A stretch of 64,000 nt of DNA from Escherichia coli (GTDB lineage Bacteria; Pseudomonadota; Gammaproteobacteria; Enterobacterales; Enterobacteriaceae): NCBI RefSeq assembly GCF_044324875.1, contig NZ_CP172185.1; one strand, given 5' to 3'. Under the pieces are notes generated by a model. It was given only the letters and a program-made list of their open reading frames with translations, was not told the origin of the DNA and made no database searches. Of this stretch, positions 5,510-35,587 are shown in pieces; position 1 is the stretch's first letter; every line of letters begins with the position of its first letter. The position numbers and the translations under genes were made by a program.

Positions 5510-5525
5510 ATACGTCTGGATGTCT
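5510..5525. promoter_or_regulatory. candidate MetJ operator (tandem met-box-like octamers ATACGTCT GGATGTCT) just upstream of metC
   Basis: Two adjacent 8-mers resembling the AGACGTCT met box, 19-34 bp upstream of the metC ATG; metC is a MetJ regulon member. Confidence 0.3.
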
Positions 5526-5742: not shown

Positions 5743-6477
5743 GTGGGTAATAATTTAATGCAGACGGACCTTTCCGTCTGGGGTATGTATCAGCACGCCG
5801 ATATTGTCGTTAAGTGCGTGATGATTGGGCTTATTTTGGCCTCCGTAGTCACCTGGGCAATCTTCTTCAGTAAGAGCGTAGAGTTCTTCACTCAGAAGCG
5901 TCGCCTTAAGCGCGAGCAGCAACTGCTGGCTGAAGCGCGTTCCTTAAACCAGGCCAACGATATCGCCGCTGATTTTGGTAGCAAAAGCTTAAGCCTGCAT
6001 TTGCTCAATGAAGCGCAGAATGAGCTGGAACTGTCAGAAGGCAGCGACGATAACGAAGGTATTAAAGAACGTACCAGCTTCCGTCTGGAGCGTCGGGTCG
6101 CCGCAGTAGGTCGTCAAATGGGCCGCGGTAACGGTTATCTGGCAACCATCGGCGCGATTTCGCCGTTCGTTGGTCTGTTTGGTACGGTCTGGGGCATCAT
6201 GAACAGCTTTATTGGTATCGCGCAAACGCAGACCACTAACCTGGCAGTCGTTGCGCCGGGTATTGCAGAAGCTCTGTTAGCAACGGCAATCGGCCTCGTG
6301 GCAGCGATTCCGGCGGTCGTTATCTATAACGTATTTGCACGTCAGATTGGCGGCTTTAAAGCGATGCTGGGTGATGTCGCAGCGCAGGTATTGTTGCTGC
6401 AAAGCCGTGACCTGGATCTGGAAGCCAGCGCCGCTGCGCATCCGGTTCGTGTCGCACAAAAATTACGCGCAGGATAA
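5743..6477 (+). CDS. exbB: TonB-system energising protein ExbB
   Basis: 244-aa ORF MGNNLMQTDLSVWGMYQHADIVVKCVM..., GTG start as printed; matches ExbB. Confidence 0.95.
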   Translation: MGNNLMQTDLSVWGMYQHADIVVKCVMIGLILASVVTWAIFFSKSVEFFTQKRRLKREQQLLAEARSLNQANDIAADFGSKSLSLHLLNEAQNELELSEGSDDNEGIKERTSFRLERRVAAVGRQMGRGNGYLATIGAISPFVGLFGTVWGIMNSFIGIAQTQTTNLAVVAPGIAEALLATAIGLVAAIPAVVIYNVFARQIGGFKAMLGDVAAQVLLLQSRDLDLEASAAAHPVRVAQKLRAG

Positions 6478-22568: not shown

Positions 22569-22578
22569 CCTTCCTGAA

Positions 22579-22612
22579 AATGCCCGGTCCTGGCGATCGG
22601 GCATTTCCATTT
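22579..22612. terminator. hairpin between convergent pitB and yghT
   Basis: ATGCCCG ...13 nt... CGGGCAT followed by TTTCCATTTTT. Confidence 0.4.
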
Positions 22613-22616
22613 TTGG

Positions 22617-23309
22617 CTAGTGATAACCACGCGCGGTCATAAAATCCGTAATCGCTTTTTCTGCATCAACCAGCACCTTTTCCAGTGGCTGATTGGCATC
22701 GATATCAACCAGTTGTGCACCACCAAAGGTTAACTGTGGCGTTATTGCAATCTTCCTCGCCAGCGATTCCCGTTTATGGTCGGGTTTACGCGCGCAGGCA
22801 ACTTCAAGGTCAACATTGAGTTTGATGACCAGATCAGGTTTATGGCTCGCCATCCAGTGAAACGCTTTACGTTCCTGGCTTGCCAGCCATGAGACAAACC
22901 GGCCGCCTTCAACGTTAGGCGGGAACACTGTACCATCGTAAGCGCCAGGAATTTGGTCCTGAGGATAACGGTCGGTTAGAACAATTAACCCGCGACGACG
23001 ACAGGCAAGCATATGACGAAAGCGCAGTAAGCGACGGGCGACAAACGCTGTAATTACCAGCGCCGGAACAGGGCCAGGCAATTTTTTTGCTGTTTTCACC
23101 TGATTTCGTTCAATTGTTTTATGTAAGGATTTTCCCATCAACGGTAATTTTGTCACTGCACGACCGACATTTCCGGCCTGTTTTCCTAAATGAACTCTTT
23201 CGGCTGCACCATATTTTTCGACAACGGTAATGAGATGTTCACACACCGTTGACTTGCCTGAACCATCGCTACCAATAACGGCAATTAATGGAGGTGTTAT
23301 TGACTGCAT
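22617..23309 (-). CDS. yghT: P-loop NTPase/kinase-like protein of unknown substrate
   Basis: 230-aa ORF; Walker [10 protein letters not shown]; shares DRYPQ and ARKPDH motifs with the two proteins below. Confidence 0.85.
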
Positions 23310-23482
23310 GAATATATCCTTTAATTTAAATATCCATTAAAAATATTTATTTGGTTAATATGTTTTTATGAAAGCGTAATTCAGGTCAATGTCACAATTA
23401 ACCATTGTCACAATAAGGTTGAACGGATATTCTGAGCACGGACCACGTAATATTCAATACATTATTTGCTGCCGGGTTTTTC

Positions 23483-24196
23483 GTGAATCAACGTAATATG
23501 TCAATAATTAATTCCACGCCAGTGCGTGTTATTGCCATTGTAGGATGTGATGGTTCAGGTAAATCGACCCTCACGGCAAGCCTGGTAAATGAACTGGCAG
23601 CAAGAATGCCAACAGAACACATTTATCTCGGGCAATCGTCCGGGCGAATTGGCGAATGGATTTCACAGCTCCCTGTTATTGGCGCACCTTTTGGGCGTTA
23701 TCTGCGAAGTAAAGCGGCACATGTGCACGAAAAGCCCTCAACACCGCCTGGCAATATTACTGCGCTGGTTATCTATCTGCTTTCCTGCTGGCGGGCGTAT
23801 AAGTTTCGCAAAATGTTGTGTAAAAGCCAGCAAGGCTATCTGCTCATCACCGACCGCTACCCGCAGGTTGAAGTGCCGGGTTTTCGCTTTGATGGCCCGC
23901 AATTGGCAAAAACCACGGGCGGTAACGGTTGGATAAAAATGTTAAGGCAGCGCGAGCTGAAGCTGTACCAATGGATGGCGTCTTATTTGCCCGTATTGTT
24001 GATTCGTCTTGGCATTGATGAACAAACGGCGTTTGCGCGTAAACCTGACCACCAACTGGCGGCGTTACAGGAAAAAATCGCCGTTACGCCGCAACTGACA
24101 TTCAATGGCGCAAAGATCCTTGAACTGGATGGTCGGCAACCAGCCGATGAAATTATGCAAGCGTCACTACGCGCAATTCACGCCGCGCTTTCCTGA
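23483..24196 (+). CDS. yghS: P-loop NTPase/kinase-like protein (paralogue of YghT/YghR)
   Basis: 237-aa ORF (GTG start as printed; alternative ATG 15 nt downstream at MSIINSTP); Walker A GCDGSGKST. Confidence 0.85.
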   Translation: MNQRNMSIINSTPVRVIAIVGCDGSGKSTLTASLVNELAARMPTEHIYLGQSSGRIGEWISQLPVIGAPFGRYLRSKAAHVHEKPSTPPGNITALVIYLLSCWRAYKFRKMLCKSQQGYLLITDRYPQVEVPGFRFDGPQLAKTTGGNGWIKMLRQRELKLYQWMASYLPVLLIRLGIDEQTAFARKPDHQLAALQEKIAVTPQLTFNGAKILELDGRQPADEIMQASLRAIHAALS

Positions 24197-24227
24197 TCAC
24201 CAAAATGGATAGGGGATGATTTAACGA

Positions 24228-24986
24228 ATGGATGCACTACAAACACAAACTGTTAATAGTACAACCGCGCCGCAGCCCAACTACATTCCGGGGCTGATTG
24301 CGGTGGTCGGGTGTGATGGCACCGGTAAATCCACGCTGACCACCGACCTGGTGAAATCGCTGCAACAACACTGGCAAACCGAGCGCCGCTATCTGGGGCT
24401 GCTCTCCGGCGAAGACGGCGACAAAATCAAACGATTGCCGTTGGTTGGCGTCTGGCTGGAACGGCGACTGGCGGCCAAATCCTCGAAAACCCAAAGCATG
24501 AAAACCAAATCTCCAGCGCTATGGGCGGCGGTGATTATGTACTGCTTCTCGCTGCGAAGAATGGCGAATCTACGCAAGGTTCAGCGACTGGCGCAAAGTG
24601 GCGTTCTGGTGGTCAGCGATCGCTTCCCGCAGGCTGAAATTTCGGGCTTTTATTATGACGGACCGGGGATCGGCGTCGAACGTGCGACCGGGAAAATCAG
24701 CATGTTTCTGGCGCAGCGCGAACGGCGTTTATACCAAAAAATGGCGCAATACCGTCCTGAATTAATCATTCGTTTGGGGATTGATATTGATACTGCCATC
24801 TCCCGCAAGCCTGACCATGACTATGCCGAGCTGCAGGACAAAATCGGCGTCATGTCGACGATTGGCTATAACGGCACAAAAATTCTTGAGATTGATTCCA
24901 GAGCGCCCTACAGCGAAGTGCTGGAACAGGCACAGAAGGCGGTTTCTCTGGTTGCCATCGTTTCTGACCGCCGAAGTTTAACTTAA
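24228..24986 (+). CDS. yghR: P-loop NTPase/kinase-like protein (paralogue of YghS/YghT)
   Basis: 252-aa ORF; Walker A GCDGTGKST, DRFPQ, SRKPDH. Confidence 0.85.
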   Translation: MDALQTQTVNSTTAPQPNYIPGLIAVVGCDGTGKSTLTTDLVKSLQQHWQTERRYLGLLSGEDGDKIKRLPLVGVWLERRLAAKSSKTQSMKTKSPALWAAVIMYCFSLRRMANLRKVQRLAQSGVLVVSDRFPQAEISGFYYDGPGIGVERATGKISMFLAQRERRLYQKMAQYRPELIIRLGIDIDTAISRKPDHDYAELQDKIGVMSTIGYNGTKILEIDSRAPYSEVLEQAQKAVSLVAIVSDRRSLT

Positions 24987-25031: not shown

Positions 25032-26381
25032 TTGGCGGGTTTTAACATCAAACATTGGTTTGCAGATGGCGCGTTTCGCACCATTATTCGCAATAGCGCC
25101 TGGTTAGGCTCCAGTAATGTCGTGAGCGCCTTGCTGGGTCTGTTGGCGCTCTCGTGTGCCGGTAAAGGGATGACGCCCGCCATGTTTGGCGTACTGGTGA
25201 TTGTGCAATCGTACGCCAAGTCGATCAGCGATTTTATTAAGTTTCAGACATGGCAGTTGGTGGTGCAGTACGGAACACCAGCATTAACCAACAATAATCC
25301 ACAGCAATTCCGCAATGTCGTCTCATTTTCCTTCTCGCTGGATATCGTCAGCGGCGCGGTGGCGATTGTCGGCGGCATTGCCTTACTCCCTTTTCTTTCC
25401 CATTCATTAGGTCTGGATGACCAAAGCTTTTGGCTGGCAGCGCTGTATTGCACGCTCATTCCTTCAATGGCTTCCTCCACGCCGACCGGCATTCTGCGTG
25501 CGGTAGATCGCTTCGACTTAATTGCTGTACAGCAGGCGACGAAACCTTTTCTGCGCGCAGCGGGGAGCGTCGTTGCCTGGTATTTTGACTTTGGTTTTGC
25601 GGGTTTTGTTATTGCCTGGTACGCCTCGAATCTTGTTGGCGGCACCATGTACTGGTGGTTTGCCGCACGTGAATTACGCCGCAGAAATATCCATAACGCG
25701 TTCAAATTGAATCTGTTTGAGTCTGCCCGACACATCAAAGGCGCGTGGAGTTTTGTCTGGTCAACCAACATTGCCCATTCCATCTGGTCGGCGCGTAATT
25801 CGTGCAGCACAGTGTTGGTGGGGATCGTGTTAGGACCCGCTGCCGCCGGGTTATTTAAAATCGCCATGACATTCTTCGACGCCGCCGGAACGCCAGCGGG
25901 TTTACTGGGCAAAAGTTTTTACCCAGAGGTGATGCGTTTAGATCCGCGTACCACCAGACCGTGGTTGTTAGGCGTGAAGTCAGGTTTACTGGCGGGCGGA
26001 ATCGGTATTCTGGTGGCGCTCGCGGTGTTGATCGTCGGCAAGCCGCTCATTTCGCTGGTGTTTGGCGTTAAGTATCTCGAAGCGTATGACCTGATTCAGG
26101 TGATGCTGGGCGCAATTGTGATCTCGATGCTGGGCTTCCCTCAGGAGTCATTGCTATTGATGGCGGGAAAACAGCGCGCTTTTCTCGTGGCGCAAACCAT
26201 CGCCTCAATCGGCTACATCGTATTGCTGTTCATGTTCTGTCATCTGTTTGGCGTGCTGGGGGCTGCATTTGCTTACTTCGGTGGGCAATGTCTGGATGTG
26301 GTGTTCTCGCTAATTCCGACCTTAAAGGCATTTTTTCAGCGCCATTCCTTGCTTTATAACTCAGCCGGAGAGAAATCCTGA
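25032..26381 (+). CDS. yghQ: Wzx/MurJ-like (MOP superfamily) polytopic membrane protein, putative lipid-linked substrate flippase
   Basis: Track ORF is 449 aa with a TTG start; first in-frame ATG about 46 codons in (MTPAMFGVLV). Longer than the 355-aa K-12 YghQ I remember. Start uncertain. Confidence 0.75.
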   Translation: MAGFNIKHWFADGAFRTIIRNSAWLGSSNVVSALLGLLALSCAGKGMTPAMFGVLVIVQSYAKSISDFIKFQTWQLVVQYGTPALTNNNPQQFRNVVSFSFSLDIVSGAVAIVGGIALLPFLSHSLGLDDQSFWLAALYCTLIPSMASSTPTGILRAVDRFDLIAVQQATKPFLRAAGSVVAWYFDFGFAGFVIAWYASNLVGGTMYWWFAARELRRRNIHNAFKLNLFESARHIKGAWSFVWSTNIAHSIWSARNSCSTVLVGIVLGPAAAGLFKIAMTFFDAAGTPAGLLGKSFYPEVMRLDPRTTRPWLLGVKSGLLAGGIGILVALAVLIVGKPLISLVFGVKYLEAYDLIQVMLGAIVISMLGFPQESLLLMAGKQRAFLVAQTIASIGYIVLLFMFCHLFGVLGAAFAYFGGQCLDVVFSLIPTLKAFFQRHSLLYNSAGEKS

Positions 26382-27217
26382 TGATGAGAAAATATTTCCC
26401 GCTTGAGGCGAGCGAGCGTCTATTTGTTGCGATTGAAGAAGATGATGTTGTTGATGCACAGGTCAGTTTGCCGCCGACTATCGCACTAAGTTGTACCACC
26501 GAAATCATCCATGATAATTACGCGTTATGCCTGCAATTCTGGCTCAATGGCGTCAATCGCCAGGAGTTACTGCGTTTAATATGCAAACAGGCCAAAGGCG
26601 ATGAGCTGACTGCTGATGAGCGCAAACAATTTAAATACATGCGAGCGCGCTACAAGCACCTGCGTTTTGCGCAACGGCTGTATTTAAAAAAGCATCAGGC
26701 CGGATTTTTATTCGGCAAAACGACCGTTTTTTTGGGGCGTTTTCAGGACGGCTTTCGTAACGGTAAGAAAAATATTGTGTCGTATTACGGCAACCTGTTA
26801 CGGGTTTATTTAAGCTCTCCGGTCTGGTCGTTGGTGAACTATTCATTACGCCATAGCCAGTTAGAAAGCGTAAGCGGTTTTATTGCCTATCGGCAAAAGC
26901 AAATGCATACCCTGAAAGAGATAATTGCCAAACCGCGACTAACTGGCAGGGAATTTCATGATGTGCGAAAAATCATCAGCCAGCAGGTTTCTTATTACGA
27001 CACCTTAAGATCGCTTGATCCTGAAAATAAAGAGGCGTTACTGATTTCCCGTTTTCTCGCCGCCATTAATGGTCTGATGGGGGATAAGCACGACGACATG
27101 GTGGCGGATGATATGGAAAACCGCCAGTCGTATGATGCACCGGTGGCGCTGGATAGCGATATTCGCCAGCGTTTAGAACTGCTGATTTCGCGTTTCCCAC
27201 TCTATCCGGAGCAATAA
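26381..27217 (+). CDS. hypothetical soluble protein, 278 aa, basic and predicted helical
   Basis: ATG overlaps yghQ stop (ATGA) with GGAGAGAAA Shine-Dalgarno; no family recognised. Confidence 0.6.
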   Translation: MMRKYFPLEASERLFVAIEEDDVVDAQVSLPPTIALSCTTEIIHDNYALCLQFWLNGVNRQELLRLICKQAKGDELTADERKQFKYMRARYKHLRFAQRLYLKKHQAGFLFGKTTVFLGRFQDGFRNGKKNIVSYYGNLLRVYLSSPVWSLVNYSLRHSQLESVSGFIAYRQKQMHTLKEIIAKPRLTGREFHDVRKIISQQVSYYDTLRSLDPENKEALLISRFLAAINGLMGDKHDDMVADDMENRQSYDAPVALDSDIRQRLELLISRFPLYPEQ

Positions 27218-27777
27218 TGCCATCTCGTTGGATTTTCGCTCTGATCATCGCACTCTTAGCGCCAGGCGCGGTGGCACACAATTTCGTCACTGGCAAAACG
27301 GTTACCCCTGTTTATATCCAGGAAGGCGGTGAGTTGCTTCTGAAAAGCGACGACGAAATTCACTACCAAAAGTGGAACAGCACACAGCTGGCGGGAAAAG
27401 TTCGCATTATTCAGTATATCGCCGGGCGTAAGTCGGCGAAGAAAAAGAACTCACTGTTAATTAAAGCGGTTGAAGCGGCAAACTTTCCGCAGGATCGTTT
27501 TCAGCCCACCACCATTGTGAACACCGATGATGCCATTTTTGGTACTGGCTATTTTGTCGTTGGCAAAATCGAAAAAAATAAACGCCGCTATCCGTGGGCG
27601 CAATTCGTTATTGACGGCAATGGACAGGGACGCGTTGCCTGGCGGTTGCCGGAGCAGAGTTCAACCATTCTGGTGCTGAATAAAGACGGGCAAATTCAGT
27701 GGGCAAAGGACGGCAGCCTGACGCCGGAAGAGGTAGATCATGTCATTGCGCTGGCGCAGAAACTGATCAATGAATAA
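27217..27777 (+). CDS. secreted/periplasmic protein, YtfJ-like, 186 aa
   Basis: N-terminal signal peptide MPSRWIFALIIALLAPGAVA; start overlaps previous stop (TAATG); resemblance to YtfJ is from memory. Confidence 0.55.
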   Translation: MPSRWIFALIIALLAPGAVAHNFVTGKTVTPVYIQEGGELLLKSDDEIHYQKWNSTQLAGKVRIIQYIAGRKSAKKKNSLLIKAVEAANFPQDRFQPTTIVNTDDAIFGTGYFVVGKIEKNKRRYPWAQFVIDGNGQGRVAWRLPEQSSTILVLNKDGQIQWAKDGSLTPEEVDHVIALAQKLINE

Positions 27778-27807
27778 AAAATTCAAAGGATTGAGGGCGT
27801 TAGCGAG

Positions 27808-28878
27808 ATGAAGCTGGTTGAACACTACATCATGCGTGGTACGCGCCGTCTGGTGTTGATTATCGTCGGTTTTCTGATCTTTATTTTCGCCAGCTACTCC
27901 GCACAGCGTTATCTGACCGAAGCGGCAAATGGGACATTAGCTCTTGATGTTGTGCTGGATATCGTTTTCTACAAAGTGCTGATTGCACTGGAGATGTTGT
28001 TACCTGTTGGACTGTATGTGTCAGTTGGCGTGACGCTAGGGCAGATGTATACCGATTCGGAAATTACCGCTATCTCTGCGGCGGGGGGCAGTCCGGGACG
28101 CTTGTACAAAGCCGTTCTTTATCTGGCGATACCGCTAAGTATTTTTGTCACCCTTCTGTCGATGTATGGTCGTCCGTGGGCTTATGCGCAGATTTATCAA
28201 CTGGAGCAACAGTCACAGTCGGAGCTGGATGTTCGCCAGTTGCGGGCAAAGAAATTTAACACTAACGATAACGGACGAATGATCCTTTCCCAGACGGTTG
28301 ATCAGGATAATAATCGCCTGACTGACGCGCTGATTTATACTTCTACTGCCAATCGAACCCGCATTTTCCGCGCCCGTTCGGTTGATGTGGTTGACCCATC
28401 TCCCGAGAAACCGACCGTTATGTTGCACAACGGGACAGCCTATCTTCTCGATCATCAGGGGCGTGACGACAACGAACAGATCTACCGTCATCTGCAATTA
28501 CATCTGAATCCGCTGGATCAAAGCCCTAACGTCAAACGCAAAGCGAAATCGGTCACGGAGCTGGCGCGCTCCGTCTTTCCAGCCGATCATGCCGAACTGC
28601 AATGGCGACAAAGCCGTGGCCTGACAGCATTGTTGATGGCGCTGCTGGCCATTTCATTAAGTCGGGTAAAACCGCGGCAAGGGCGATTTTCAACATTATT
28701 GCCACTGACGTTGCTGTTTATTGCCATTTTTTATGGCGGCGACGTCTGCCGTACGCTGGTGGCTAACGGCGCGATTCCCCTCATTCCTGGTTTGTGGTTA
28801 GTACCCGGACTCATGCTAATGGGCCTGCTGATGCTGGTCGCACGCGACTTCTCTTTGCTGCAGAAATTTTCCCGATGA
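27808..28878 (+). CDS. YjgP/YjgQ-family permease (LptF-like paralogue)
   Basis: 356-aa ORF with N-terminal TM cluster, long periplasmic middle region and C-terminal TM helices, the LptF/LptG architecture. Confidence 0.7.
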   Translation: MKLVEHYIMRGTRRLVLIIVGFLIFIFASYSAQRYLTEAANGTLALDVVLDIVFYKVLIALEMLLPVGLYVSVGVTLGQMYTDSEITAISAAGGSPGRLYKAVLYLAIPLSIFVTLLSMYGRPWAYAQIYQLEQQSQSELDVRQLRAKKFNTNDNGRMILSQTVDQDNNRLTDALIYTSTANRTRIFRARSVDVVDPSPEKPTVMLHNGTAYLLDHQGRDDNEQIYRHLQLHLNPLDQSPNVKRKAKSVTELARSVFPADHAELQWRQSRGLTALLMALLAISLSRVKPRQGRFSTLLPLTLLFIAIFYGGDVCRTLVANGAIPLIPGLWLVPGLMLMGLLMLVARDFSLLQKFSR

Positions 28879-29954
28879 ATGTTTTCAGTCGCTATTTAAT
28901 CCGTCATCTCTTTCTCGGTTTTGCCGCCGCCGCAGGGCTATTGCTGCCGCTTTTTACCACCTTCAACCTGATTAACGAACTGGATGATGTCAGCCCGGGT
29001 GGTTATCGCTGGACTCAGGCGGTGCTGGTGGTGCTGATGACCTTACCGCGCACACTGGTCGAACTTTCGCCGTTTATCGCATTATTGGGAGGGATTGTTG
29101 GCCTGGGGCAGTTATCGAAAAACAGTGAGCTTACCGCCATTCGCAGCACGGGGTTTTCTATCTTCCGTATTGCACTAGTGGCGCTGGTTGCCGGGATATT
29201 TTGGACTGTTTCGTTAGGCGCGATAGATGAGTGGGTGGCGTCGCCATTGCAGCAACAGGCGCTGCAAATCAAATCGACTGCCACCGCGTTGGGGGAGGAC
29301 GATGACATTACCGGCAATATGCTTTGGGCCAGGCGCGGTAATGAATTTGTGACGGTGAAATCGCTGAACGAGCAGGGCCAGCCTGTGGGCGTGGAGATAT
29401 TTCATTATCGCGACGATCTCTCGCTCGAATCCTACATTTTTGCACGCAGTGCCTCCATTGAAGACGACAAAACGTGGATCCTGCATGGTGTGAATCATAA
29501 AAAATGGTTGAATGGCAAAGAAACGCTGGAAACATCAGATAATCTTGCCTGGCAATCGGCCTTCACCAGTATGAATCTTGAAGAGTTATCGATGCCGGGA
29601 AATACTTTTTCTGTCCGTCAACTTAATCATTACATCCATTATTTGCAGGAAACTGGGCAACCCAGCAGCGAATACCGCCTTGCACTGTGGGAAAAACTGG
29701 GACAACCCATCCTGACCCTGGCGATGATTTTGCTGGCTGTGCCGTTTACCTTTAGTGCCCCGCGTTCGCCTGGGATGGGTAGCCGTCTCGCTGTAGGCGT
29801 CATCGTGGGCTTACTTACCTGGATCAGCTATCAAATCATGGTCAATCTGGGATTGCTATTTGCGTTGAACGCACCTGTTACCGCGCTCGGTTTACCGGTA
29901 GCGTTTGTGCTGGTGGCGTTGAGCCTGGTGTATTGGTATGACAGACAACATTAA
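28875..29954 (+). CDS. YjgP/YjgQ-family permease (LptG-like paralogue)
   Basis: Track ORF 28794..29954 is over-extended; start MNVFSRYLIRHLFLGF overlaps the upstream stop (ATGA), giving 359 aa with LptG-like topology. Confidence 0.7.
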   Translation: MNVFSRYLIRHLFLGFAAAAGLLLPLFTTFNLINELDDVSPGGYRWTQAVLVVLMTLPRTLVELSPFIALLGGIVGLGQLSKNSELTAIRSTGFSIFRIALVALVAGIFWTVSLGAIDEWVASPLQQQALQIKSTATALGEDDDITGNMLWARRGNEFVTVKSLNEQGQPVGVEIFHYRDDLSLESYIFARSASIEDDKTWILHGVNHKKWLNGKETLETSDNLAWQSAFTSMNLEELSMPGNTFSVRQLNHYIHYLQETGQPSSEYRLALWEKLGQPILTLAMILLAVPFTFSAPRSPGMGSRLAVGVIVGLLTWISYQIMVNLGLLFALNAPVTALGLPVAFVLVALSLVYWYDRQH

Positions 29955-29988
29955 ACCCGCCGTGGCGCAACACCACAGCGGGCTCACA

Positions 29989-31161
29989 TTACTGCTTCAG
30001 AGTAGCGAACGCTTGAATGATGGCATCAATTTGCTCACGACTGTGGGCAGCGTTTACGCTACAGCGCAGCAGCGTGATGCCTGCAGGCGCGGCAGGTGGC
30101 AGGATAAGATTCACATAAACGCCCAGCGAAATAAGCTCGCGCCAGATGCGTAAACCTTCCTCTTTCGAACCGATTATTACTGGCACTACCGGGCTAATAT
30201 GTGAACTTAACTCATAACCCAGTTTTTGCAGACCGTCATACAGATGGTTGGCATTATCCATCAGCTTTTGCCGCAACTCTGGTTGTGTAGCAATGGTTCT
30301 TAACGACGAGCGCACGGTCGCAATGCAGGACGGAGAAGGAGAGGCGGTAAAAATATACGGGCGGCTGCCGTAGCGCAGCACTTCCATCGCTTCCGAACCG
30401 ACAGCAAAACCGCCAATCGAGGCCAGACTTTTACTGAAAGTACCAACGATAATATCCACATCATCTTCAACGCCAACGGCTTCAGCCAGTCCGCGCCCCG
30501 TTGCGCCTAACACGCCAAACGAATGCGCTTCATCGACAATCAAATAACCACCGAGACGACGTTTGATATCAACAATTTCCGCCAGCGGCGCAACGTCACC
30601 GAGCATACTGTAGATGCCTTCAACGATGATAATCGCCTCTTTTGCCCGTTCACCGAGGCGAACCATGCGCCGTTCCAGATCTTTAGCATCGTTATGGCGG
30701 AAACGAATAATTTCCGCGCCACCGAGAGAACAGGCGTCATAAATACTGGCGTGGCTGTCGGCATCCAGTAACACCACGGCGTTATGGTCGGCAAGTGCGC
30801 TGATGACGCCTAAATTAGCGGTATAACCGGTTGAAAAAACGATAGCGGTAGGGCGATTAAAAAACTCGGCGATCTCTTTCTCTAACGCCAGATGCGGCGC
30901 ATAACTGCCGTTTGCCATACGAGAACCGGTGGTGCCGGTGCCTTGGGCCGCTAACGCTGCCTGACCTTCGGCGATGGCATCATGATTGAAGGTTAATCCG
31001 AGATAATTATTGGTCCCGGCCAGAATCACTTTTTTATTGCCGATCCGGCCTTCGGTGGCGGAATACACTTCATCAATACAGGTACCAAACGGCGTTAACC
31101 CGTTGTCACTAAATTGCAGTCGCTCGCCAGCAAGACGCGCATATTTATCGTATAGCCCCAT
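29989..31161 (-). CDS. PLP-dependent alpha-oxoamine synthase, serine-palmitoyltransferase-like
   Basis: 390 aa; motifs DEAHSFG and VGTFSKSLASIGGF (PLP lysine about residue 244, codon near 30430..30432). Confidence 0.8.
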   Translation of the reverse strand: MGLYDKYARLAGERLQFSDNGLTPFGTCIDEVYSATEGRIGNKKVILAGTNNYLGLTFNHDAIAEGQAALAAQGTGTTGSRMANGSYAPHLALEKEIAEFFNRPTAIVFSTGYTANLGVISALADHNAVVLLDADSHASIYDACSLGGAEIIRFRHNDAKDLERRMVRLGERAKEAIIIVEGIYSMLGDVAPLAEIVDIKRRLGGYLIVDEAHSFGVLGATGRGLAEAVGVEDDVDIIVGTFSKSLASIGGFAVGSEAMEVLRYGSRPYIFTASPSPSCIATVRSSLRTIATQPELRQKLMDNANHLYDGLQKLGYELSSHISPVVPVIIGSKEEGLRIWRELISLGVYVNLILPPAAPAGITLLRCSVNAAHSREQIDAIIQAFATLKQ

Positions 31162-31409
31162 TATTTATTCTCCAGCCATGGAAGTAGTGTTTCCATTAAT
31201 TGCGCAGGGGTTTTGACATCCAGCAGAATATTAATAGGAATGGAAATATCGAATCTGTCTTCCAGCATCATTAAGAGATCCATCACTTTGATCGACTCCA
31301 GGCCAAGATCGTTGACGAGATCGCTGTCGGGCTTAATTTCCACACCGTTTTCGACCAAATCCTGTAAACAGGAAAGGATGTAATCCATTACTATTTCACG
31401 ATTTACCAT
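31161..31409 (-). CDS. acyl carrier protein (dedicated, 82 aa)
   Basis: Small acidic protein with DLGLESIKVMDL (candidate phosphopantetheine serine); stop overlaps the downstream synthase start. Confidence 0.7.
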   Translation of the reverse strand: MVNREIVMDYILSCLQDLVENGVEIKPDSDLVNDLGLESIKVMDLLMMLEDRFDISIPINILLDVKTPAQLMETLLPWLENK

Positions 31410-31440
31410 AGAAACGTTAACACACCTTTAAACAAGACAA

Positions 31441-32355
31441 TCAAAATAGCCCGTTGCGTAATGCGTGTTCCAGGCTAATCCCGGGAAACCAATTAATATC
31501 TTCAGAAATACGGTTATTACTTGCTGACCAGTCGGCGTGGGTTAATTCACGGATTTTCGAGCGGGTCAGCATAGGTTCTTTACCTGCCAGGCGACTCAAC
31601 GTGGTACTGATATCCGCAAGGCAGGTGAGTACCGACAGAGGAATACCAACCATTCGAACGGAACCACAACGGGCGTCGGCGGCAAGCTGTCTTACGCGTT
31701 GCCAGTCATAGCCGCCGGCGACGCCATCGCATAATTCATAGGTTTGCGTCTGTACAGTTTCGGCGCTTAACCACTGCCCCACGGCTTGCGCGAAATCGGT
31801 GACGTGCAGGAAAGAGAGCTGTGTATCTGGCGCACCAAGTCGTGGCAGTAGGCCGCGCAGCATCCAGTCAAACAGCGGTTTTAACTCTTTATCGCCGGGA
31901 CCATACACGGCTGTCGGGCGAAAAATGCCCAGCGTAATTTCGTCAGCCATTGCGGTCAGTCGTTGTTCGGCGACGTGTTTGGAATTTGCGTACCAGGAGA
32001 GTTCGGGATGGCGCGCCGCCAGCGAAGAGATAAACAGAAAACGTTGGCAAAAGCCGCTCTCTTTTGCCGCTTGCATCAGGCGCAGGCTGCCGTCAACGTT
32101 ACAGCGGGTAAAAATCTCTTCTTTGTGTCCGCGCACTTGTCCGGCGCAATGGACCACCGCGCTGGCTCCGGCAACCAGTTCGCTAAGCGAATGTGTATCT
32201 TCCAGCGAACCGCGCACCCAGATGAGATTATCATTGACGTGAGCGCGGGCAGTACGCGTCAATGCGCGAACGTGAAAGCCGCGGGCGAGCAGGTTATCGA
32301 TAATATATTTACCGATAAACCCGGTAGCGCCCGTCACCGCGACAGTTTGATTCAT
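31441..32355 (-). CDS. NAD(P)-dependent epimerase/dehydratase-family (extended SDR) oxidoreductase, putative keto-reductase
   Basis: 304 aa; Rossmann VTGATGFIGKYI, catalytic YANSK; start overlaps upstream ligase stop by 4 nt. Confidence 0.75.
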   Translation of the reverse strand: MNQTVAVTGATGFIGKYIIDNLLARGFHVRALTRTARAHVNDNLIWVRGSLEDTHSLSELVAGASAVVHCAGQVRGHKEEIFTRCNVDGSLRLMQAAKESGFCQRFLFISSLAARHPELSWYANSKHVAEQRLTAMADEITLGIFRPTAVYGPGDKELKPLFDWMLRGLLPRLGAPDTQLSFLHVTDFAQAVGQWLSAETVQTQTYELCDGVAGGYDWQRVRQLAADARCGSVRMVGIPLSVLTCLADISTTLSRLAGKEPMLTRSKIRELTHADWSASNNRISEDINWFPGISLEHALRNGLF

Positions 32356-34073
32356 GCCAGGGATTCCTGCACATGAAGGCTTGCAGCATAAGCCTTCTGA
32401 TAGCGTTTTTTCGCTTCCGCACGGGCAGGCTTGCCGGAGGACGTTCGGGGAATACTGTGGGGCGGCAACAGATCGATAGCCGCGGTCACGCCAAATTCGC
32501 TTTGGATCCGTGCTGCCAGCGCGTGGATAAGCTGCCCGCGACGTTCTTCATCGCTGATCCGACACTGGATCTGCAAAATGATTTTTTCCTGGGCGGTAAC
32601 AAAAGCAATCGCATCGCCAGAATGAATTTCCGGTTCCTGTTCCGCAATATATTCAATATCTTGCGGCCAGATATTGCGGCCACGAATAATAATCAGATCT
32701 TTAATGCGTCCGGTGACATACAGATAACCGTCCAGCAGATAACCGAGGTCGCCGGTGTCTAACCAGCCCGTCGCGGCAATCTCGTCTTGTGAAATCTGGT
32801 CGCCAAAGTAACCGCTCATCAGGCTAGGGCCGGAGATGCAAATATGGCCTACCACACGTTCCGCGACAGGTATACCTGCTTCATTGCGGATTTCAATGCC
32901 ATGTTCCGGCAACGCTTTACCGCAGTTGACGAAAGTCGATACGGCGCGTGTTTCAGCATCCGGCGCGACGGCTTTGCCCTGATATTCGAGGATGTCGCGA
33001 TCCACTTCGTTAACCACAACCCCGGAAGCTTCATCAGAGAAGCTGACAGCCAGCGCATTTTCTGCCAGTCCGTAGCACGGCATGAACGTTTTATCGTCAA
33101 AGTTAACCTGACGAAAACATTCAGCGAATTGATGGAGTTGTTCTGCGGAGATCGGTTCTGCGCCAATACCAGCGACGCGCCAGCAGGAAAGATCCAGTTC
33201 AGCGAGATCTTTTTCATTCACGCGGCGCTGGCACAATTCATAGCCAAACGGCGGCGCAACGGAAACGGTGCCGCGATTTTTACTGATCAATTTAAGCCAT
33301 TGCAGAGGACGCATGGCAAAATCCTGAGTGCGCAAATAATCTACTGAGAGCTGCGTGGCGACGGGGGTCAGGAGAAAGCCGACCAGTCCCATATCATGGT
33401 AGAAAGGCAGCCAGGAGACGCAGCGGTCGCCAGGGCGTAATTTAATGCCATCGTGGCTTATAGCACGTAGATTAGCCATCACTTCGCGATGGGTGATAAT
33501 GACGCCACGGGGAAAACGGGTGCTGCCGGAGGTGTACTGGAGGTAGGCGATATCGTTCGGAACTGGACGCTGGAGTGCAACATCGGCTTCCGGTAATGCC
33601 TTAAACCAGGCGTGGCTTAAAACATGTAATTCGGGTTTGTTATGCGTCGCGGCATTGACCAGCGGTAACCACTCATCACCAGTGATAATGGCTGCGGGCT
33701 GGCAACTTGCCAGTAAACCCTGCAGTTTGGCGCTCCAGGAATCCCGCTGACCGACGCCCATTGGAATCGCCAACGGGACGGCGACTAAGCCGGCATACTG
33801 GCAGGAAAAAAAAGCCTCTACGAACCCGCTACTGGTTTCGGCAATCAGCGCCACGCGATCGCCTTTTTTCAGGTTCAGCGATAACAACCGCTTCGCACCA
33901 GCTTCGGCACGCGCTTTTAACGTCTGATATTCCAGTTGATCTTCAAGTTGGCAACGTCTGTCATAAAAATTCATTCCGGCGCTACTCAGAGCGGCGTAGT
34001 CCAAAGCATCAACCAGCGTTGGAAAATCGGCATAGCGCATAGGTAGGGAATGCGTAAAGATTTTATTAGACAT
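32352..34073 (-). CDS. fatty acyl-AMP ligase / acyl-ACP synthetase-type adenylating enzyme
   Basis: Track ORF 32352..34100 (582 aa); AMP-binding motif YTSGSTRFPRGV. Start uncertain (candidates at 34100, 34073, 34040); 34073 ATG chosen. Confidence 0.75.
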   Translation of the reverse strand: MSNKIFTHSLPMRYADFPTLVDALDYAALSSAGMNFYDRRCQLEDQLEYQTLKARAEAGAKRLLSLNLKKGDRVALIAETSSGFVEAFFSCQYAGLVAVPLAIPMGVGQRDSWSAKLQGLLASCQPAAIITGDEWLPLVNAATHNKPELHVLSHAWFKALPEADVALQRPVPNDIAYLQYTSGSTRFPRGVIITHREVMANLRAISHDGIKLRPGDRCVSWLPFYHDMGLVGFLLTPVATQLSVDYLRTQDFAMRPLQWLKLISKNRGTVSVAPPFGYELCQRRVNEKDLAELDLSCWRVAGIGAEPISAEQLHQFAECFRQVNFDDKTFMPCYGLAENALAVSFSDEASGVVVNEVDRDILEYQGKAVAPDAETRAVSTFVNCGKALPEHGIEIRNEAGIPVAERVVGHICISGPSLMSGYFGDQISQDEIAATGWLDTGDLGYLLDGYLYVTGRIKDLIIIRGRNIWPQDIEYIAEQEPEIHSGDAIAFVTAQEKIILQIQCRISDEERRGQLIHALAARIQSEFGVTAAIDLLPPHSIPRTSSGKPARAEAKKRYQKAYAASLHVQESLA

Positions 34074-34444: not shown

Positions 34445-35587
34445 ATGGAATGCGATCTGCTGATGATTAAAATTGAAAAAGTAATTAATAAAAATGACCT
34501 TAAGGCATTTATCGCTTTTCCGTCATCACTTTATCCCGACGATCCAAACTGGATACCCCCTTTATTCATTGAACGCAACGAGCATTTGTCTGCGAAAAAT
34601 CCGGGGACGGACCATATCATCTGGCAGGCGTGGGTGGCAAAAAAAGCAGGGCAGATAGTTGGGCGTATTACCGCGCAAATCGATACCTTGCACCGCGAGC
34701 GTTACGGCAAAGATACCGGTCATTTCGGCATGATTGACGCCATTGATGATCCGCAGGTTTTTGCCGCGTTGTTTGGCGCAGCGGAAGCGTGGTTGAAGTC
34801 ACAAGGTGCAAGTAAGATCAGCGGTCCTTTCAGCCTGAATATCAATCAGGAAAGCGGATTACTGATTGAAGGTTTCGATACACCACCCTGTGCGATGATG
34901 CCACACGGCAAACCGTGGTATGCCGCGCATATTGAACAATTGGGTTATCACAAAGGCATTGATTTACTGGCGTGGTGGATGCAGCGAACCGATCTCACTT
35001 TCTCTCCGGCCCTAAAAAAACTGATGGATCAGGTGCGCAAAAAAGTGACCATTCGCTGCATCAATCGCCAGCGGTTTGCCGAAGAGATGCAGATCCTGCG
35101 TGAGATTTTCAACTCTGGCTGGCAGCATAACTGGGGATTTGTGCCGTTTACCGAACATGAGTTCGCGACTATGGGCGATCAGCTTAAGTACCTGGTGCCG
35201 GACGATATGATCTACATCGCCGAGATTGATTCTGCACCCTGTGCGTTTATTGTCGGCTTACCGAACATCAACGAGGCGATTGCCGATCTGAACGGATCGC
35301 TCTTTCCCTTCGGCTGGGCAAAATTGCTGTGGCGTTTAAAAGTCAGCGGTGTGCGAACTGCGCGAGTACCGCTGATGGGCGTGCGGGACGAGTATCAGTT
35401 TAGCCGCATCGGCCCGGTGATTGCGCTGTTATTGATTGAAGCCTTACGCGATCCGTTTGCCCGCCGGAAGATCGATGCGCTGGAAATGTCATGGATCCTC
35501 GAAACCAATATAGGCATGAATAACATGCTGGAACGCATTGGGGCGGAGCCGTACAAGCGTTACCGATTGTATGAAAAGCAGATTTAA
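34445..35587 (+). CDS. yghO: YghO-family protein, predicted acyl-CoA N-acyltransferase-like fold (intact here)
   Basis: 380-aa ORF MECDLLMIKIEKVINKNDLKAFIAFPSS... adjacent to glcC as yghO is in K-12; fold assignment is from memory. Confidence 0.65.
   Translation: MECDLLMIKIEKVINKNDLKAFIAFPSSLYPDDPNWIPPLFIERNEHLSAKNPGTDHIIWQAWVAKKAGQIVGRITAQIDTLHRERYGKDTGHFGMIDAIDDPQVFAALFGAAEAWLKSQGASKISGPFSLNINQESGLLIEGFDTPPCAMMPHGKPWYAAHIEQLGYHKGIDLLAWWMQRTDLTFSPALKKLMDQVRKKVTIRCINRQRFAEEMQILREIFNSGWQHNWGFVPFTEHEFATMGDQLKYLVPDDMIYIAEIDSAPCAFIVGLPNINEAIADLNGSLFPFGWAKLLWRLKVSGVRTARVPLMGVRDEYQFSRIGPVIALLLIEALRDPFARRKIDALEMSWILETNIGMNNMLERIGAEPYKRYRLYEKQI

What the first reader, a model, noticed from the sequence alone, without database searches (positions are those of the whole stretch)
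22617..24986. Three paralogous P-loop kinase-like genes (yghT, yghS, yghR) flanking the flippase
All three share Walker A G(S/C)DG(S/T)GKST, a D-R-(Y/F)-P-Q motif and an (A/S)RKPDH motif at equivalent positions (visible in the translations). One is divergent, two are co-directional with yghQ. Triplicated small kinases next to lipid synthesis and transport genes could phosphorylate a lipid head group, a sugar or a nucleotide precursor; their substrates are unknown to me.
Basis: partly seen in the sequence, partly recalled or inferred. Interest (0 to 1): 0.5.

Follow-up and report, generated by a model that had tools for sequence, protein, structure and literature searches.

The report
Three kinase paralogs in sphingolipid island
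The three look-alike genes yghT, yghS and yghR are real, ancient copies of a thymidylate-kinase-like enzyme that travel with the genes for making and exporting a bacterial sphingolipid, and together with a neighbouring polyphosphate-binder-like protein they probably put phosphate groups on that lipid's head group, a reaction nobody has yet tested.

Summary
yghT (22617-23309, -), yghS (23483-24196, +) and yghR (24228-24986, +) are paralogs (34-44% identity, BLASTP E 1e-46 to 1e-62) sharing the Walker A, DR(Y/F)PQ and (A/S)RKPDH motifs. All three lie on one side of the flippase; they do not flank it.

The neighbouring "lipid genes" are the E. coli sphingolipid island: spt, acpR, cerR-like, aasR, yghO, plus a MOP flippase and LptF/LptG paralogs.

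Across 80 genomes, T, S and R are three separate ancient orthogroups, usually one of each per locus and usually next to sphingolipid genes. All keep the catalytic residues. S and R are fused in some genomes.

The unnamed 278-aa neighbour has a CHAD-like (polyphosphate-binding) fold. This resembles the archaeal PPK3 operon of dTMPK-like paralogs plus a CHAD gene.

Best inference, untested: they are ATP-dependent phosphotransferases building a phosphate or oligophosphate head group on the ceramide before flipping and export. The RefSeq name "dTMP kinase" is probably wrong.

The parts
22617..23309 (-). yghT: T-type member of the triad, 230 aa. Walker A at 23247-23273, LPLMG loop at 23133-23147, DRYPQ at 22959-22973, ARKPDH at 22776-22793.
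23310..23482 (.). Divergent yghT/yghS intergenic region, 173 bp, 30% GC. Presumed promoter region. It holds one sigma-70-like match for yghS at 23405-23433, which is no more than chance would give.
   Evidence: a FlhDC SELEX peak is reported here in PMC9962212
23483..24196 (+). yghS: S-type member of the triad, 237 aa, GTG start. Walker A at 23543-23569, LPVIG loop at 23669-23683, DRYPQ at 23852-23866, ARKPDH at 24035-24052. This is the protein that was modelled.
24228..24986 (+). yghR: R-type member of the triad, 252 aa. Walker A at 24309-24335, LPLVG loop at 24435-24449, DRFPQ at 24618-24632, SRKPDH at 24801-24818.
25032..26381 (+). yghQ: MOP/Wzx-type flippase, 449 aa. It is the most frequent neighbour of the triad (59 of 78 loci).
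26381..27217 (+). Unnamed 278-aa protein with a predicted CHAD-like all-helical fold and invariant His/Arg/Lys residues. It is the second most frequent neighbour of the triad (53 of 78 loci). Its start overlaps the yghQ stop.
27217..27777 (+). YtfJ-family protein, 186 aa. The N-terminus looks like a signal peptide by eye, so it is presumably periplasmic; this was not tested.
27808..29954 (+). LptF and LptG paralogs (27808-28878 and 28875-29954): sphingolipid-locus copies of the LPS ABC-transporter permeases.
   Evidence: 10.64898/2026.04.12.717747
29989..34073 (-). Ceramide-backbone operon: spt (29989-31161), acpR (31161-31409), cerR-like SDR reductase (31441-32355), aasR fatty acyl-AMP ligase (32352-34073).
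   Evidence: PMC9386255
34445..35587 (+). yghO: homologue of the bacterial ceramide synthase (N-acyltransferase).
   Evidence: PMC9386255

Best explanation
yghT, yghS and yghR encode three anciently diverged, catalytically intact members of an unnamed branch of the thymidylate-kinase (dTMPK) superfamily. They are the kinase component of the sphingolipid island.

Shown here:
- The dTMPK-like fold.
- An intact ATP site and phosphoryl-transfer residues in all three.
- Three separate orthogroups kept together.
- Tight synteny with spt/acpR/cerR/aasR/yghO, a MOP flippase, LptF/G paralogs and a CHAD-like protein.
- Natural S-R fusions.

Inferred:
- On the cytoplasmic face of the inner membrane, each paralog uses ATP to phosphorylate a different, phosphate-bearing intermediate of the sphingolipid head group. 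An example route is ceramide-1-phosphate to ceramide di- or oligophosphate. This is the same phosphoanhydride-forming chemistry as dTMP to dTDP.
- S and R work as a physical pair.
- The first phosphate could come from a DgkA-type or CpgB-type lipid kinase.
- The CHAD-like protein binds the oligophosphate group.
- YghQ flips the product and LptF2/LptG2 extract it towards the outer membrane.
For: Fold:
- AlphaFold model of YghS: pLDDT 91.4, pTM 0.87.
- The family profile hits dTMP kinases in the PDB at E 6e-11 to 1e-6.

Catalytic residues:
- G21, D23, G24, G26 and K27 are 100% conserved in each of the T, S and R groups (73-83 sequences each). So are R125, P127, D137, E158, P170, R186, K187, D189, H190 and K198.
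- D124, Q128 and P188 are 91-100% conserved.
- R104 is 94-100% conserved. It aligns with the dTMPK Arg that holds the acceptor phosphate.
- R125 is the DRx clamp Arg (PMC12995831).

Non-redundancy:
- Each locus has one T, one S and one R.
- The order T(-)S(+)R(+) holds in gamma- and betaproteobacteria, and S-R-T in alphaproteobacteria.
- Group-specific residues sit in the acceptor-side loop: position 48 is H/Y/Y and position 51 is K/Q/L in T/S/R.

Pairing:
- S-R fusions occur in Nitrotoga (L054, L057) and in P0121.

Context:
- Spt lies within 10 kb in 50 of 78 loci, the flippase in 59, the CHAD-like protein in 53, and LptF/G paralogs in 36-37.
- Serratia and Carnimonas show the same layout.
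- yghS-yghR-yghQ-CHAD-like-ytfJ-like-lptF2-lptG2 are co-directional, with gaps of 0-45 bp or overlaps.

Phosphate theme:
- CHAD domains bind polyphosphate (PMC6537752).
- Triad loci also carry DgkA paralogs, PAP2 phosphatases and LpxO-like hydroxylases. They also carry membrane methyltransferases of the PEMT/ICMT type.

Membrane proximity:
- All three proteins are basic (pI 9.5-9.9).
- None has a transmembrane helix.
- They share a hydrophobic LPxxG loop that is absent from the polysaccharide-type relatives.

Precedent:
- PPK3 is built from dTMPK-like paralogs that act on a phosphate chain and are encoded beside a CHAD gene (PMC12995831).
Against: - No biochemical or lipidomic data exist for these proteins or for the E. 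coli island product.
- No ceramide oligophosphate was found in the literature searched here, and I know of none. The known anionic bacterial sphingolipids use other enzymes: CpgA-D in Caulobacter.
- dTMPK-fold enzymes are normally soluble and act on soluble substrates. The proteins have no membrane anchor.
- The CHAD assignment rests on predicted fold only. Neither Pfam CHAD nor any PDB sequence matched.
- The CHAD-like gene is missing within 10 kb in about a third of the triad loci.
- Distant relatives sit in Wzx/Wzy polysaccharide clusters and in other contexts. The wider family is therefore not sphingolipid-specific.
- Sphingomonads have the triad in addition to CpgB/CpgC homologues. The triad is therefore not a simple replacement for the known pathway.
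Confidence: 0.4

Rival explanations
1. PPK3-like enzyme: T, S and R form a hetero-oligomer that makes or consumes free inorganic polyphosphate (ATP + polyP(n) <-> ADP + polyP(n+1)). The CHAD-like protein binds the polymer. The link to the lipid island would be indirect, for example phosphate or energy supply.
For: - Several dTMPK-like paralogs plus a CHAD(-like) gene in one locus is the architecture of the archaeal PPK3 operon.
- S-R fusions suggest a complex.
- The proteins are basic.
- The acceptor-phosphate Arg residues are conserved.
Against: - All three paralogs keep the DRx Arg, so there is no degenerate regulatory subunit of the kind that defines PPK3 operons.
- No PPX, SixA or Pst genes are among the recurrent neighbours. 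The recurrent neighbours are flippase, Lpt permeases and ceramide genes.
- By sequence, ST1543 matches more weakly (E 1e-4) than canonical dTMPKs (E 6e-11).
- PPK3 homologues are reported mainly in Crenarchaeota and a few bacteria such as Acidobacteriota.
- E. coli already has PPK1 (named as the E. coli polyP kinase in PMC12995831).
Confidence: 0.2
2. Hydroxyl kinases: the three enzymes each phosphorylate a different hydroxyl of the sphingoid base or ceramide (C1-OH, C3-OH, acyl 2-OH). The product would be a mono-, bis- or tris-phosphorylated ceramide rather than a phosphate chain.
For: - The E. coli island contains no CpgB-type or other lipid kinase and no glycosyltransferase.
- Invariant acidic residues D137 and E158 could serve as a general base.
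- LpxO-like hydroxylases in 18 loci could create extra hydroxyl groups.
Against: - The closest structures and sequences are dTMP kinases, which act on a phosphate acceptor.
- Both Arg residues that hold the acceptor phosphate in dTMPK are conserved.
- Sixteen loci carry their own DgkA paralog. Sphingomonads also have CpgB homologues. This argues that the first phosphate is added by another enzyme.
Confidence: 0.2
3. Kinases for a soluble head-group precursor (a sugar, glycerate-type acid or similar) that is later transferred to ceramide.
For: - The fold family mostly acts on soluble small molecules.
- Relatives are fused to a nucleotidyltransferase-like domain (PF14907) and to a GT4 glycosyltransferase. 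Together these would suit precursor activation.
- In Caulobacter the head group is built from soluble phosphoglycerate via CDP-glycerate.
Against: - The E. coli-type island has no transferase (CDP-alcohol phosphatidyltransferase, glycosyltransferase or nucleotidyltransferase) that could attach such a precursor.
- Three kinases for one precursor would be unusual.
Confidence: 0.1
4. Non-catalytic ATP-binding regulators or assembly factors for the flippase or the Lpt-like exporter.
For: - The flippase is the most constant neighbour (59 of 78 loci).
- One relative is fused to a flippase (P0216).
Against: - The full set of phosphoryl-transfer residues, including acceptor-side Arg residues and the lid, is under strict conservation in all three groups.
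- MOP flippases are not ATP-driven (established knowledge).
- In Caulobacter the LptF2/G2 pair uses the LPS ATPase LptB.
Confidence: 0.07
5. Genuine thymidylate or nucleotide kinases, as RefSeq names yghS and yghT.
For: - RefSeq product names.
- dTMPK-like fold and motifs.
Against: - TIGR00041 scores are 25-31 bits against a cut-off of 83.25. Pfam Thymidylate_kin is not significant.
- The segment after DRY that recognises thymine in dTMPKs is replaced by a family-specific PQ...DG loop.
- There are three copies in a lipid island.
- E. coli has its own essential tmk elsewhere (established knowledge).
- In Sulfolobus, proteins with the same annotation turned out not to be dTMP kinases.
Confidence: 0.03

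Closest known systems
Thymidylate kinase (dTMPK; Pfam PF02223, TIGR00041)
   Same: - P-loop of the form GxDGxGK(S/T), with the acidic residue.
- hhhhDR(Y/F) motif with the clamp Arg.
- The Arg in the preceding helix that binds the acceptor phosphate.
- A basic lid (RK) after strand 4, of the bacterial 'type II' kind with no Arg in the P-loop.
   Different: - Scores are far below family thresholds.
- The loop after DRY is replaced by PQx(E)xxG(F)xxDG.
- Extra LPxxG helix-loop-helix.
- Invariant lid His (RKPDH).
- About 40 residues longer.
- Three co-located paralogs in a lipid locus.
PPK3, the archaeal family-3 polyphosphate kinase (Saci_2019/Saci_2020; PMC12995831)
   Same: - dTMPK-fold paralogs encoded side by side with a CHAD(-like) gene.
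- Previously annotated as thymidylate kinases.
- The acceptor is a phosphate group rather than a nucleotide.
- Hetero-oligomer: shown for PPK3, suggested here by S-R fusions.
   Different: - Three paralogs rather than two, all with an intact DRx Arg, so there is no inactive regulatory subunit.
- Neighbours are ceramide synthesis, flippase and Lpt genes, not PPX/SixA/Pst.
- Proteobacterial rather than crenarchaeal.
- Not closer to ST1543 than to ordinary dTMPKs by sequence.
- Activity unknown.
CpgB, the bacterial ceramide kinase of Caulobacter (PMC10331486), with the CpgA/C/D head-group pathway
   Same: Encoded in a sphingolipid locus next to spt, a flippase and LptF/G paralogs. Supplies an anionic phosphate-containing head group.
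   Different: - CpgB is a DAGK/LCB5-type kinase with a GGDG motif, which is an unrelated fold.
- The E. coli-type island has no CpgA-D homologues.
- Sphingomonads carry both systems.
LpxK (lipid A 4'-kinase)
   Same: A P-loop kinase that phosphorylates a membrane lipid on the cytoplasmic face before flipping and Lpt-dependent export. This is a functional analogy drawn from established knowledge.
CHAD domain proteins (Pfam PF05235; PMC6537752), for the 278-aa neighbour
   Same: - Predicted two-bundle all-helical fold.
- Invariant His/Arg/Lys residues.
- UniRef names one family member a CHAD domain-containing protein.
   Different: - No Pfam CHAD match and no PDB sequence match.
- A small family (610 proteins) apparently confined to these lipid loci.
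- Ligand unknown.

Membership tests
dTMP kinase (TIGR00041 / PF02223), as an equivalog | Score above the curated family threshold | tested here: not met
   TIGR00041 gives 25.4, 25.0 and 31.1 bits against a cut-off of 83.25. Pfam Thymidylate_kin i-E-values are 0.012 to 0.43.
dTMP kinase (TIGR00041 / PF02223), as an equivalog | Thymine/deoxyribose recognition elements after the DRY motif and in the REPGGT region | tested here: not met
   In HMMER alignments to dTMPKs, the segment after DRY is replaced by PQxExPGFxxDGP and the REPGGT region by YLGxxSG. The base-stacking Phe position is F, L or F/L in the T, S and R groups.
dTMPK superfamily (fold level) | NMP-kinase fold with P-loop, DRx motif and lid | tested here: met
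   [not shown]
PPK3 polyphosphate kinase | dTMPK-fold paralogs encoded together with polyP-related genes (CHAD, PPX, SixA) | tested here: inconclusive
   A CHAD-like neighbour is present in 53 of 78 loci. No PPX, SixA or Pst genes are among the recurrent neighbours.
PPK3 polyphosphate kinase | A catalytic subunit plus a regulatory subunit that has lost the DRx Arg | tested here: not met
   R125 is 100% conserved in all of T, S and R. The PPK3 criterion comes from PMC12995831.
PPK3 polyphosphate kinase | Placement inside the PPK3 clade of the dTMPK tree | not tested
The only indirect result is that ST1543 (2plr) matches at E 1e-4, more weakly than canonical dTMPKs.
PPK3 polyphosphate kinase | Reversible ATP:polyP phosphotransfer | not testable with these tools
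   Needs an enzyme assay.
PPK2 (PF03976) | Match to the PPK2 profile or fold | tested here: not met
   [not shown]
Bacterial ceramide kinase CpgB (DAGK/LCB5 type) | DAGK catalytic domain with a GGDG motif | tested here: not met
   YghT, YghS and YghR are P-loop proteins with no DAGK_cat hit. The CpgB features come from PMC10331486.
Proteobacterial sphingolipid locus (for the island as a whole) | spt above threshold, preceded by acpR, with aasR, a cerR-like reductase and a bCerS-like yghO nearby | tested here: met
   spt scores 600 bits against a cut-off of 500 for NF047599. The gene order matches the E. coli BL21 locus ECD_02850-02854 described in PMC9386255.
Proteobacterial sphingolipid locus (for the island as a whole) | Second copies of LptF and LptG, and a flippase | tested here: met
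   TIGR04407 gives 318 bits (cut-off 230) and TIGR04408 gives 304.5 bits (cut-off 240). There is a weak MOP flippase match. A parallel locus is described in Caulobacter and E. coli UTI89.
CHAD domain (for the 278-aa neighbour) | Two four-helix bundles with conserved His and basic residues | tested here: met
   [not shown]
CHAD domain (for the 278-aa neighbour) | Match to Pfam CHAD or to solved CHAD sequences | tested here: not met
   No CHAD hit in Pfam. No PDB sequence hit at E <= 10.
CHAD domain (for the 278-aa neighbour) | Binding of polyphosphate | not testable with these tools
   Needs a binding assay.
Anti-phage defence systems (PADLOC) | Match to a defence-protein model | tested here: not met
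   Only P-loop-level matches, E >= 2e-4 and <= 19 bits.

The most novel reading that the evidence does not exclude
The YghT/S/R triad, with the CHAD-like protein, builds a short phosphate chain (di-, tri- or oligophosphate) on ceramide. This would give a ceramide-anchored oligophosphate: a class of strongly anionic outer-membrane lipid not described so far. It would then be flipped by YghQ and exported by the LptF2/G2 paralogs. It would be a lipid-anchored counterpart of the PPK3/CHAD polyphosphate system and a functional mimic of phosphorylated lipid A, present in most E. coli and many Enterobacterales, sphingomonads and acetic acid bacteria.
Probability: 0.25. Interest if true: 0.9.

Novelty: new variant of a known kind. 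Interest (0 to 1): 0.62.

Why it matters
- About 88% of complete E. coli genomes carry the three genes, and about 78% carry at least part of the adjoining island segment (CHAD-like gene to aasR). The lipid it makes is nevertheless unknown. K-12, where most y-gene work was done, has lost the core of the island to an IS5 event. That loss may explain why yghR, yghS and yghT have no reported phenotype.
- The E. coli-type island lacks every known sphingolipid head-group enzyme. The only candidates are these three kinases and the CHAD-like protein.
- Defining their reaction would therefore define the head group of the enterobacterial sphingolipid. It would also identify the substrate of a second Lpt-type export route.
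- It would test whether the dTMPK fold has been recruited to phosphate-chain chemistry a second time, independently of archaeal PPK3.
- It also corrects a widespread database name ('dTMP kinase').

Tried and rejected
- **Homology to the Caulobacter ceramide kinase CpgB.** Rejected: CpgB is a DAGK/LCB5-type kinase with a GGDG motif.
- **Pfam, NCBIfam and PADLOC.** No family assignment and no defence link.
- **Literature on yghQ/R/S/T.** Only gene lists, one FlhDC SELEX peak and a silkworm-virulence screen with no effect. No functional study exists. Papers on the E. coli sphingolipid locus deal with spt/acpR/aasR and LptF/G only.
- **A recent E. coli-specific triplication.** Rejected: T, S and R are separate orthogroups across three proteobacterial classes.
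- **One paralog as a pseudo-enzyme, as with rPPK3.** Rejected: all catalytic residues are kept in all three.
- **Membrane anchoring by a transmembrane helix.** None found; the maximum Kyte-Doolittle 19-residue mean is <= 1.35.
- **Promoter and terminator scans.** Counts are no higher than in shuffles. Only a plausible pitB/yghT terminator hairpin (22578-22606) and one weak yghS promoter match were found.
- **The wider family (nucleotidyltransferase-kinase fusions) as a clue to the substrate.** Contexts are heterogeneous: a Wzx/Wzy polysaccharide cluster in one case, phosphoesterase and Ser/Thr kinase neighbours in another. No firm conclusion follows.
- **Sequence search of the CHAD-like protein against the PDB.** Found nothing. 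Only the fold comparison was informative.
- **Placing the triad in the PPK3 clade.** Could not be done: no PPK3 sequences or supplements were available.
Full report
**1. The observation**

The window is an E. coli chromosome segment: hyb operon, yghU, gss, pitB, then the genes in question.
- yghT: 22617-23309 on the minus strand, 230 aa.
- yghS: 23483-24196 on the plus strand, GTG start, 237 aa.
- yghR: 24228-24986 on the plus strand, 252 aa.

They are unmistakable paralogs. BLASTP gives S/R 44% identity (E 6e-62), T/S 36% (E 3e-53) and T/R 34% (E 2e-46). The three-way alignment has 55 invariant columns.

The quoted motifs are all present:
- Walker A: [27 protein letters not shown].
- DRYPQ, DRYPQ, DRFPQ.
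- ARKPDH, ARKPDH, SRKPDH.

One detail is wrong. The three genes do not flank the flippase yghQ (25032-26381). All lie upstream of it, with yghT divergent across a 173-bp, 30% GC spacer.

**2. What the neighbourhood is**

RefSeq annotation of a near-identical strain and NCBIfam scans show a complete bacterial sphingolipid island downstream. In order it contains:
- yghQ, a MOP-type flippase.
- An unnamed 278-aa protein.
- A YtfJ-family protein.
- Second copies of LptF and LptG (318 and 304.5 bits, above cut-offs).
- On the other strand: spt (serine palmitoyltransferase, 600 bits against a cut-off of 500), an acyl carrier protein, an SDR reductase and a fatty acyl-AMP ligase.
- yghO.

This is the locus described for E. 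coli BL21 as aasR-epi-acpR-spt plus yghO (PMC9386255). It is also drawn for UTI89 in a 2026 preprint on LptF2/G2. None of these papers says anything about yghR, yghS or yghT. A direct literature search found no functional study.

The kinase genes are in 4784 of 5426 complete E. coli genomes, and the adjoining island segment (window 26400-34000, CHAD-like gene to aasR) matches in 4209. In K-12 MG1655 an IS5 element replaces everything from the 3' end of yghQ to aasR. There the three genes are leftovers of a decayed island.

**3. What the proteins are**

No Pfam family reaches significance. The only NCBIfam matches beyond the P-loop are dTMP kinase models, at 25-31 bits against a cut-off of 83.

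A profile built from 47 diverse family members does hit solved thymidylate kinases significantly, at E 6e-11 to 1e-6. The alignments cover three features:
- The P-loop.
- The helix carrying the Arg that binds the acceptor phosphate in dTMPKs, followed by the hhhhDRY motif.
- The basic lid.

The proteins therefore belong to the dTMPK superfamily at fold level, but not to the dTMP kinase family proper:
- The thymine-recognition segment after DRY is replaced by a family-specific PQx(E)xxG(F)xxDG loop.
- There is an additional LPxxG helix-loop-helix.
- The lid carries an invariant His.

The RefSeq product name 'dTMP kinase' for yghS and yghT is thus very probably an over-annotation. They are also unrelated to the one characterised bacterial ceramide kinase, CpgB, which is a DAGK/LCB5-type enzyme.

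**4. Evolution and context**

A search of 1.84 billion representative proteins found 2175 clusters at E <= 1e-3 and 142 at E <= 1e-30. A scan of one genome per species returned 80 loci. These came from:
- Enterobacterales, Carnimonas and Rhodanobacter/Luteibacter.
- Many beta- and gammaproteobacterial MAGs, and Nitrotoga.
- Sphingomonads and acetic acid bacteria.
- A few Myxococcota and Planctomycetota.

Nearly every locus contains two to four copies. Assigning each copy to its nearest E. coli paralog shows three clean orthogroups, with one T, one S and one R per locus. The order is T(-)S(+)R(+) in gamma- and betaproteobacteria and S-R-T in alphaproteobacteria. The triplication is therefore ancient and the three copies are not redundant.

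In Nitrotoga (L054, L057) and in P0121, S and R are fused in that order into one polypeptide. This is a Rosetta-stone hint that they work together physically.

Clustering all ORFs of the loci gives the recurrent neighbours out of 78 loci:

| Neighbour | Loci |
|---|---|
| Flippase | 59 |
| 278-aa protein | 53 |
| Spt | 50 |
| CerR-like reductase | 49 |
| AasR | 44 |
| LptG2 / LptF2 | 37 / 36 |
| YtfJ-like protein | 35 |
| YghO | 29 |
| LpxO-like hydroxylase | 18 |
| DgkA paralog | 16 |
| PAP2 phosphatases (two families) | 13 + 8 |
| PEMT/ICMT-type methyltransferase | 10 |

Serratia and Carnimonas show the same layout in independently called genes. Sphingomonads and Acetobacter keep the triad with a flippase 54-57% identical to YghQ. 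The sphingomonads (L075, L086) also keep the 278-aa protein next to it; Acetobacter (L080) does not within 10 kb. Their spt genes are known to be dispersed.

More distant relatives carry an N-terminal nucleotidyltransferase-like domain (PF14907). Some are fused to a flippase or to a GT4 glycosyltransferase. They are an outgroup to T, S and R and occur in heterogeneous contexts, including a Wzx/Wzy polysaccharide cluster.

**5. Are they active enzymes?**

The opposite is found in each of the three groups, with 73-83 sequences each.
- G21, D23, G24, G26 and K27 are 100% conserved.
- So are R125, P127, D137, E158, P170, R186, K187, D189, H190 and K198.
- D124, Q128 and P188 are 91-100% conserved.
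- R104, the equivalent of the dTMPK acceptor-phosphate Arg, is 94-100% conserved.

Differences between the groups concentrate in the loop that in dTMPKs lies over the acceptor. Position 48 is His in T and Tyr in S and R. Position 51 is Lys in T, Gln in S and Leu in R. This is the pattern expected for three enzymes with the same chemistry and different, related acceptors.

All three proteins are basic (pI 9.5-9.9) and none has a transmembrane helix. They share a short hydrophobic LPxxG loop flanked by basic residues, which is absent from the polysaccharide-type relatives. This is compatible with peripheral membrane binding.

**6. The neighbour that changes the picture**

The 278-aa protein (26381-27217) has no Pfam, NCBIfam or PDB sequence match. 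It has invariant His, Arg and Lys residues. Its model is very confident (pLDDT 95.4).

CHAD domains are specific polyphosphate-binding modules (PMC6537752).

The resemblance is one of design, not membership:
- PPK3 operons pair a catalytic subunit with a regulatory one that has lost the DRx Arg, whereas T, S and R all keep it.
- The neighbours here are lipid genes rather than PPX/SixA/Pst.
- By sequence, ST1543 is a weaker match than ordinary dTMPKs.
- Reported PPK3 homologues are crenarchaeal, with a few bacterial ones.

**7. Most likely mechanism**

*Shown:* a conserved module of three intact dTMPK-fold phosphotransferases, a CHAD-like protein and a MOP flippase. In E. coli it is co-directional with the Lpt-type exporter genes, with gaps of 0-45 bp, and it is genetically tied to ceramide synthesis.

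*Inferred:*
- The E. coli-type island has no other head-group enzyme: no CpgA-D, no glycosyltransferase and no CDP-alcohol transferase.
- The three kinases therefore most likely make the head group by ATP-dependent phosphorylation on the cytoplasmic face.
- Both acceptor-phosphate Arg residues of dTMPK are conserved, and the partner protein has a polyphosphate-binder fold. The favoured reading is therefore phosphoanhydride formation on an already phosphorylated lipid (ceramide-P to ceramide-PP and beyond), one step per paralog.
- The first phosphate would come from a DgkA- or CpgB-type lipid kinase.

Several observations fit this. Sixteen loci carry their own DgkA paralog, and the Serratia copy is only 41% identical to E. 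coli DgkA. Sphingomonads have CpgB homologues as well as the triad. That E. coli DgkA phosphorylates ceramide in vitro is textbook knowledge and was not tested here.

The product would then be flipped by YghQ and extracted by LptF2/G2.

I give this reading 0.4 overall. About 0.7 applies to 'active kinases dedicated to the sphingolipid pathway', and about 0.25 to the specific oligophosphate lipid.

**8. Rivals**

- A PPK3-like enzyme acting on free polyphosphate: 0.2.
- Hydroxyl kinases giving mono-, bis- or tris-phosphorylated ceramide: 0.2.
- Kinases for a soluble head-group precursor: 0.1.
- Non-catalytic ATP-binding regulators of the flippase or exporter: 0.07.
- True dTMP kinases: 0.03.

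The evidence for and against each, and what would refute it, is given in the rival section. A defence-system role is excluded as far as PADLOC can tell.

**9. Novelty and verdict**

The genes themselves are long-known y-genes, and the island is known from recent sphingolipid papers. What appears to be new:
- Recognition of T, S and R as an ancient, conserved, catalytically intact triad of a distinct dTMPK-superfamily branch.
- Its coupling to a CHAD-like protein and a flippase in sphingolipid loci.
- The parallel with PPK3.

This is a new variant of a known kind (dTMPK-fold enzymes recruited to a non-nucleotide phosphate acceptor), with an untested but concrete and easily testable mechanism. 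Interest: 0.62.

Noticed in passing
window 26381-27217 (+): The unnamed 278-aa protein between yghQ and the YtfJ-like gene is predicted with high confidence to have a CHAD-like (polyphosphate-binding module) fold. It has no Pfam or PDB sequence match. The family is small (610 proteins) and appears confined to sphingolipid loci.
   Followed up: yes
L088 (E. coli K-12 MG1655 3125000-3140000), 5147-6341: In K-12 an IS5 element replaces the island from the 3' end of yghQ through aasR. This leaves yghO, a truncated yghQ and the three kinase genes as remnants. About 575 more complete E. coli genomes match the kinase-gene query than match the spt-segment query (4784 against 4209).
   Followed up: partly
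L005 2279-2644 (-); also L007 12404-12730 and 14 other loci: Sixteen triad loci carry a DgkA-family (DAGK_prokar) gene. The Serratia copy is only 41% identical to E. coli DgkA, so it looks like a dedicated paralog. It is a candidate for the kinase that puts the first phosphate on ceramide.
   Followed up: partly
loci L019-L087 (families 10, 12, 13, 15 and 16): Several accessory gene families recur next to the triad: LpxO-like Asp/Arg hydroxylases (18 loci), two PAP2 phosphatase families (13 and 8 loci), a PEMT/ICMT-type membrane methyltransferase (10 loci) and DUF2147 (8 loci). The set is reminiscent of lipid A modification enzymes.
   Followed up: partly
window 22617-24196; RefSeq records: RefSeq names yghS and yghT 'dTMP kinase', although they score 25-31 bits against the TIGR00041 cut-off of 83 and sit in a lipid island. 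This is probably a propagated over-annotation.
   Followed up: yes
L002 8733-9482, L089 9491-10186, L091 1554-2165: The distant nucleotidyltransferase-kinase fusion proteins are each followed by a second, small P-loop protein. In the L002 and L089 copies the DRY motif appears replaced by DQG (no clamp Arg); in L091 the corresponding tripeptide reads DQG as well. This is read by eye from the sequences, not from an alignment. It recalls the catalytic/regulatory pairing of PPK3.
   Followed up: partly
L054 9812-11356, L057 9749-11356; P0121: yghS-like and yghR-like genes are fused into one roughly 500-aa two-domain protein in Nitrotoga and in a metagenomic cluster.
   Followed up: yes
window 24035-24052 and equivalents (lid RKPDH): The His of the lid motif RKPDH is invariant in all three orthogroups. 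It has no counterpart in the dTMP kinases aligned. Its role is unexplained.
   Followed up: no
window 23310-23482: The divergent yghT/yghS spacer is 30% GC in a roughly 52% GC region. A published genomic SELEX study lists a FlhDC binding peak between yghS and yghT (PMC9962212). Regulation of the island is unknown.
   Followed up: no
window 34445-35587 (+): yghO, the presumed ceramide synthase (N-acyltransferase), gave no Pfam match at all in the batch scan. K-12 still annotates it as a putative DNA-binding regulator.
   Followed up: no
window 27217-27777 (+): A YtfJ-family protein with what looks like a signal peptide is part of the operon in 35 of 78 loci. The E. coli-type island has no LptC paralog, unlike Caulobacter, so this protein might fill a periplasmic role in export.
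   Followed up: no
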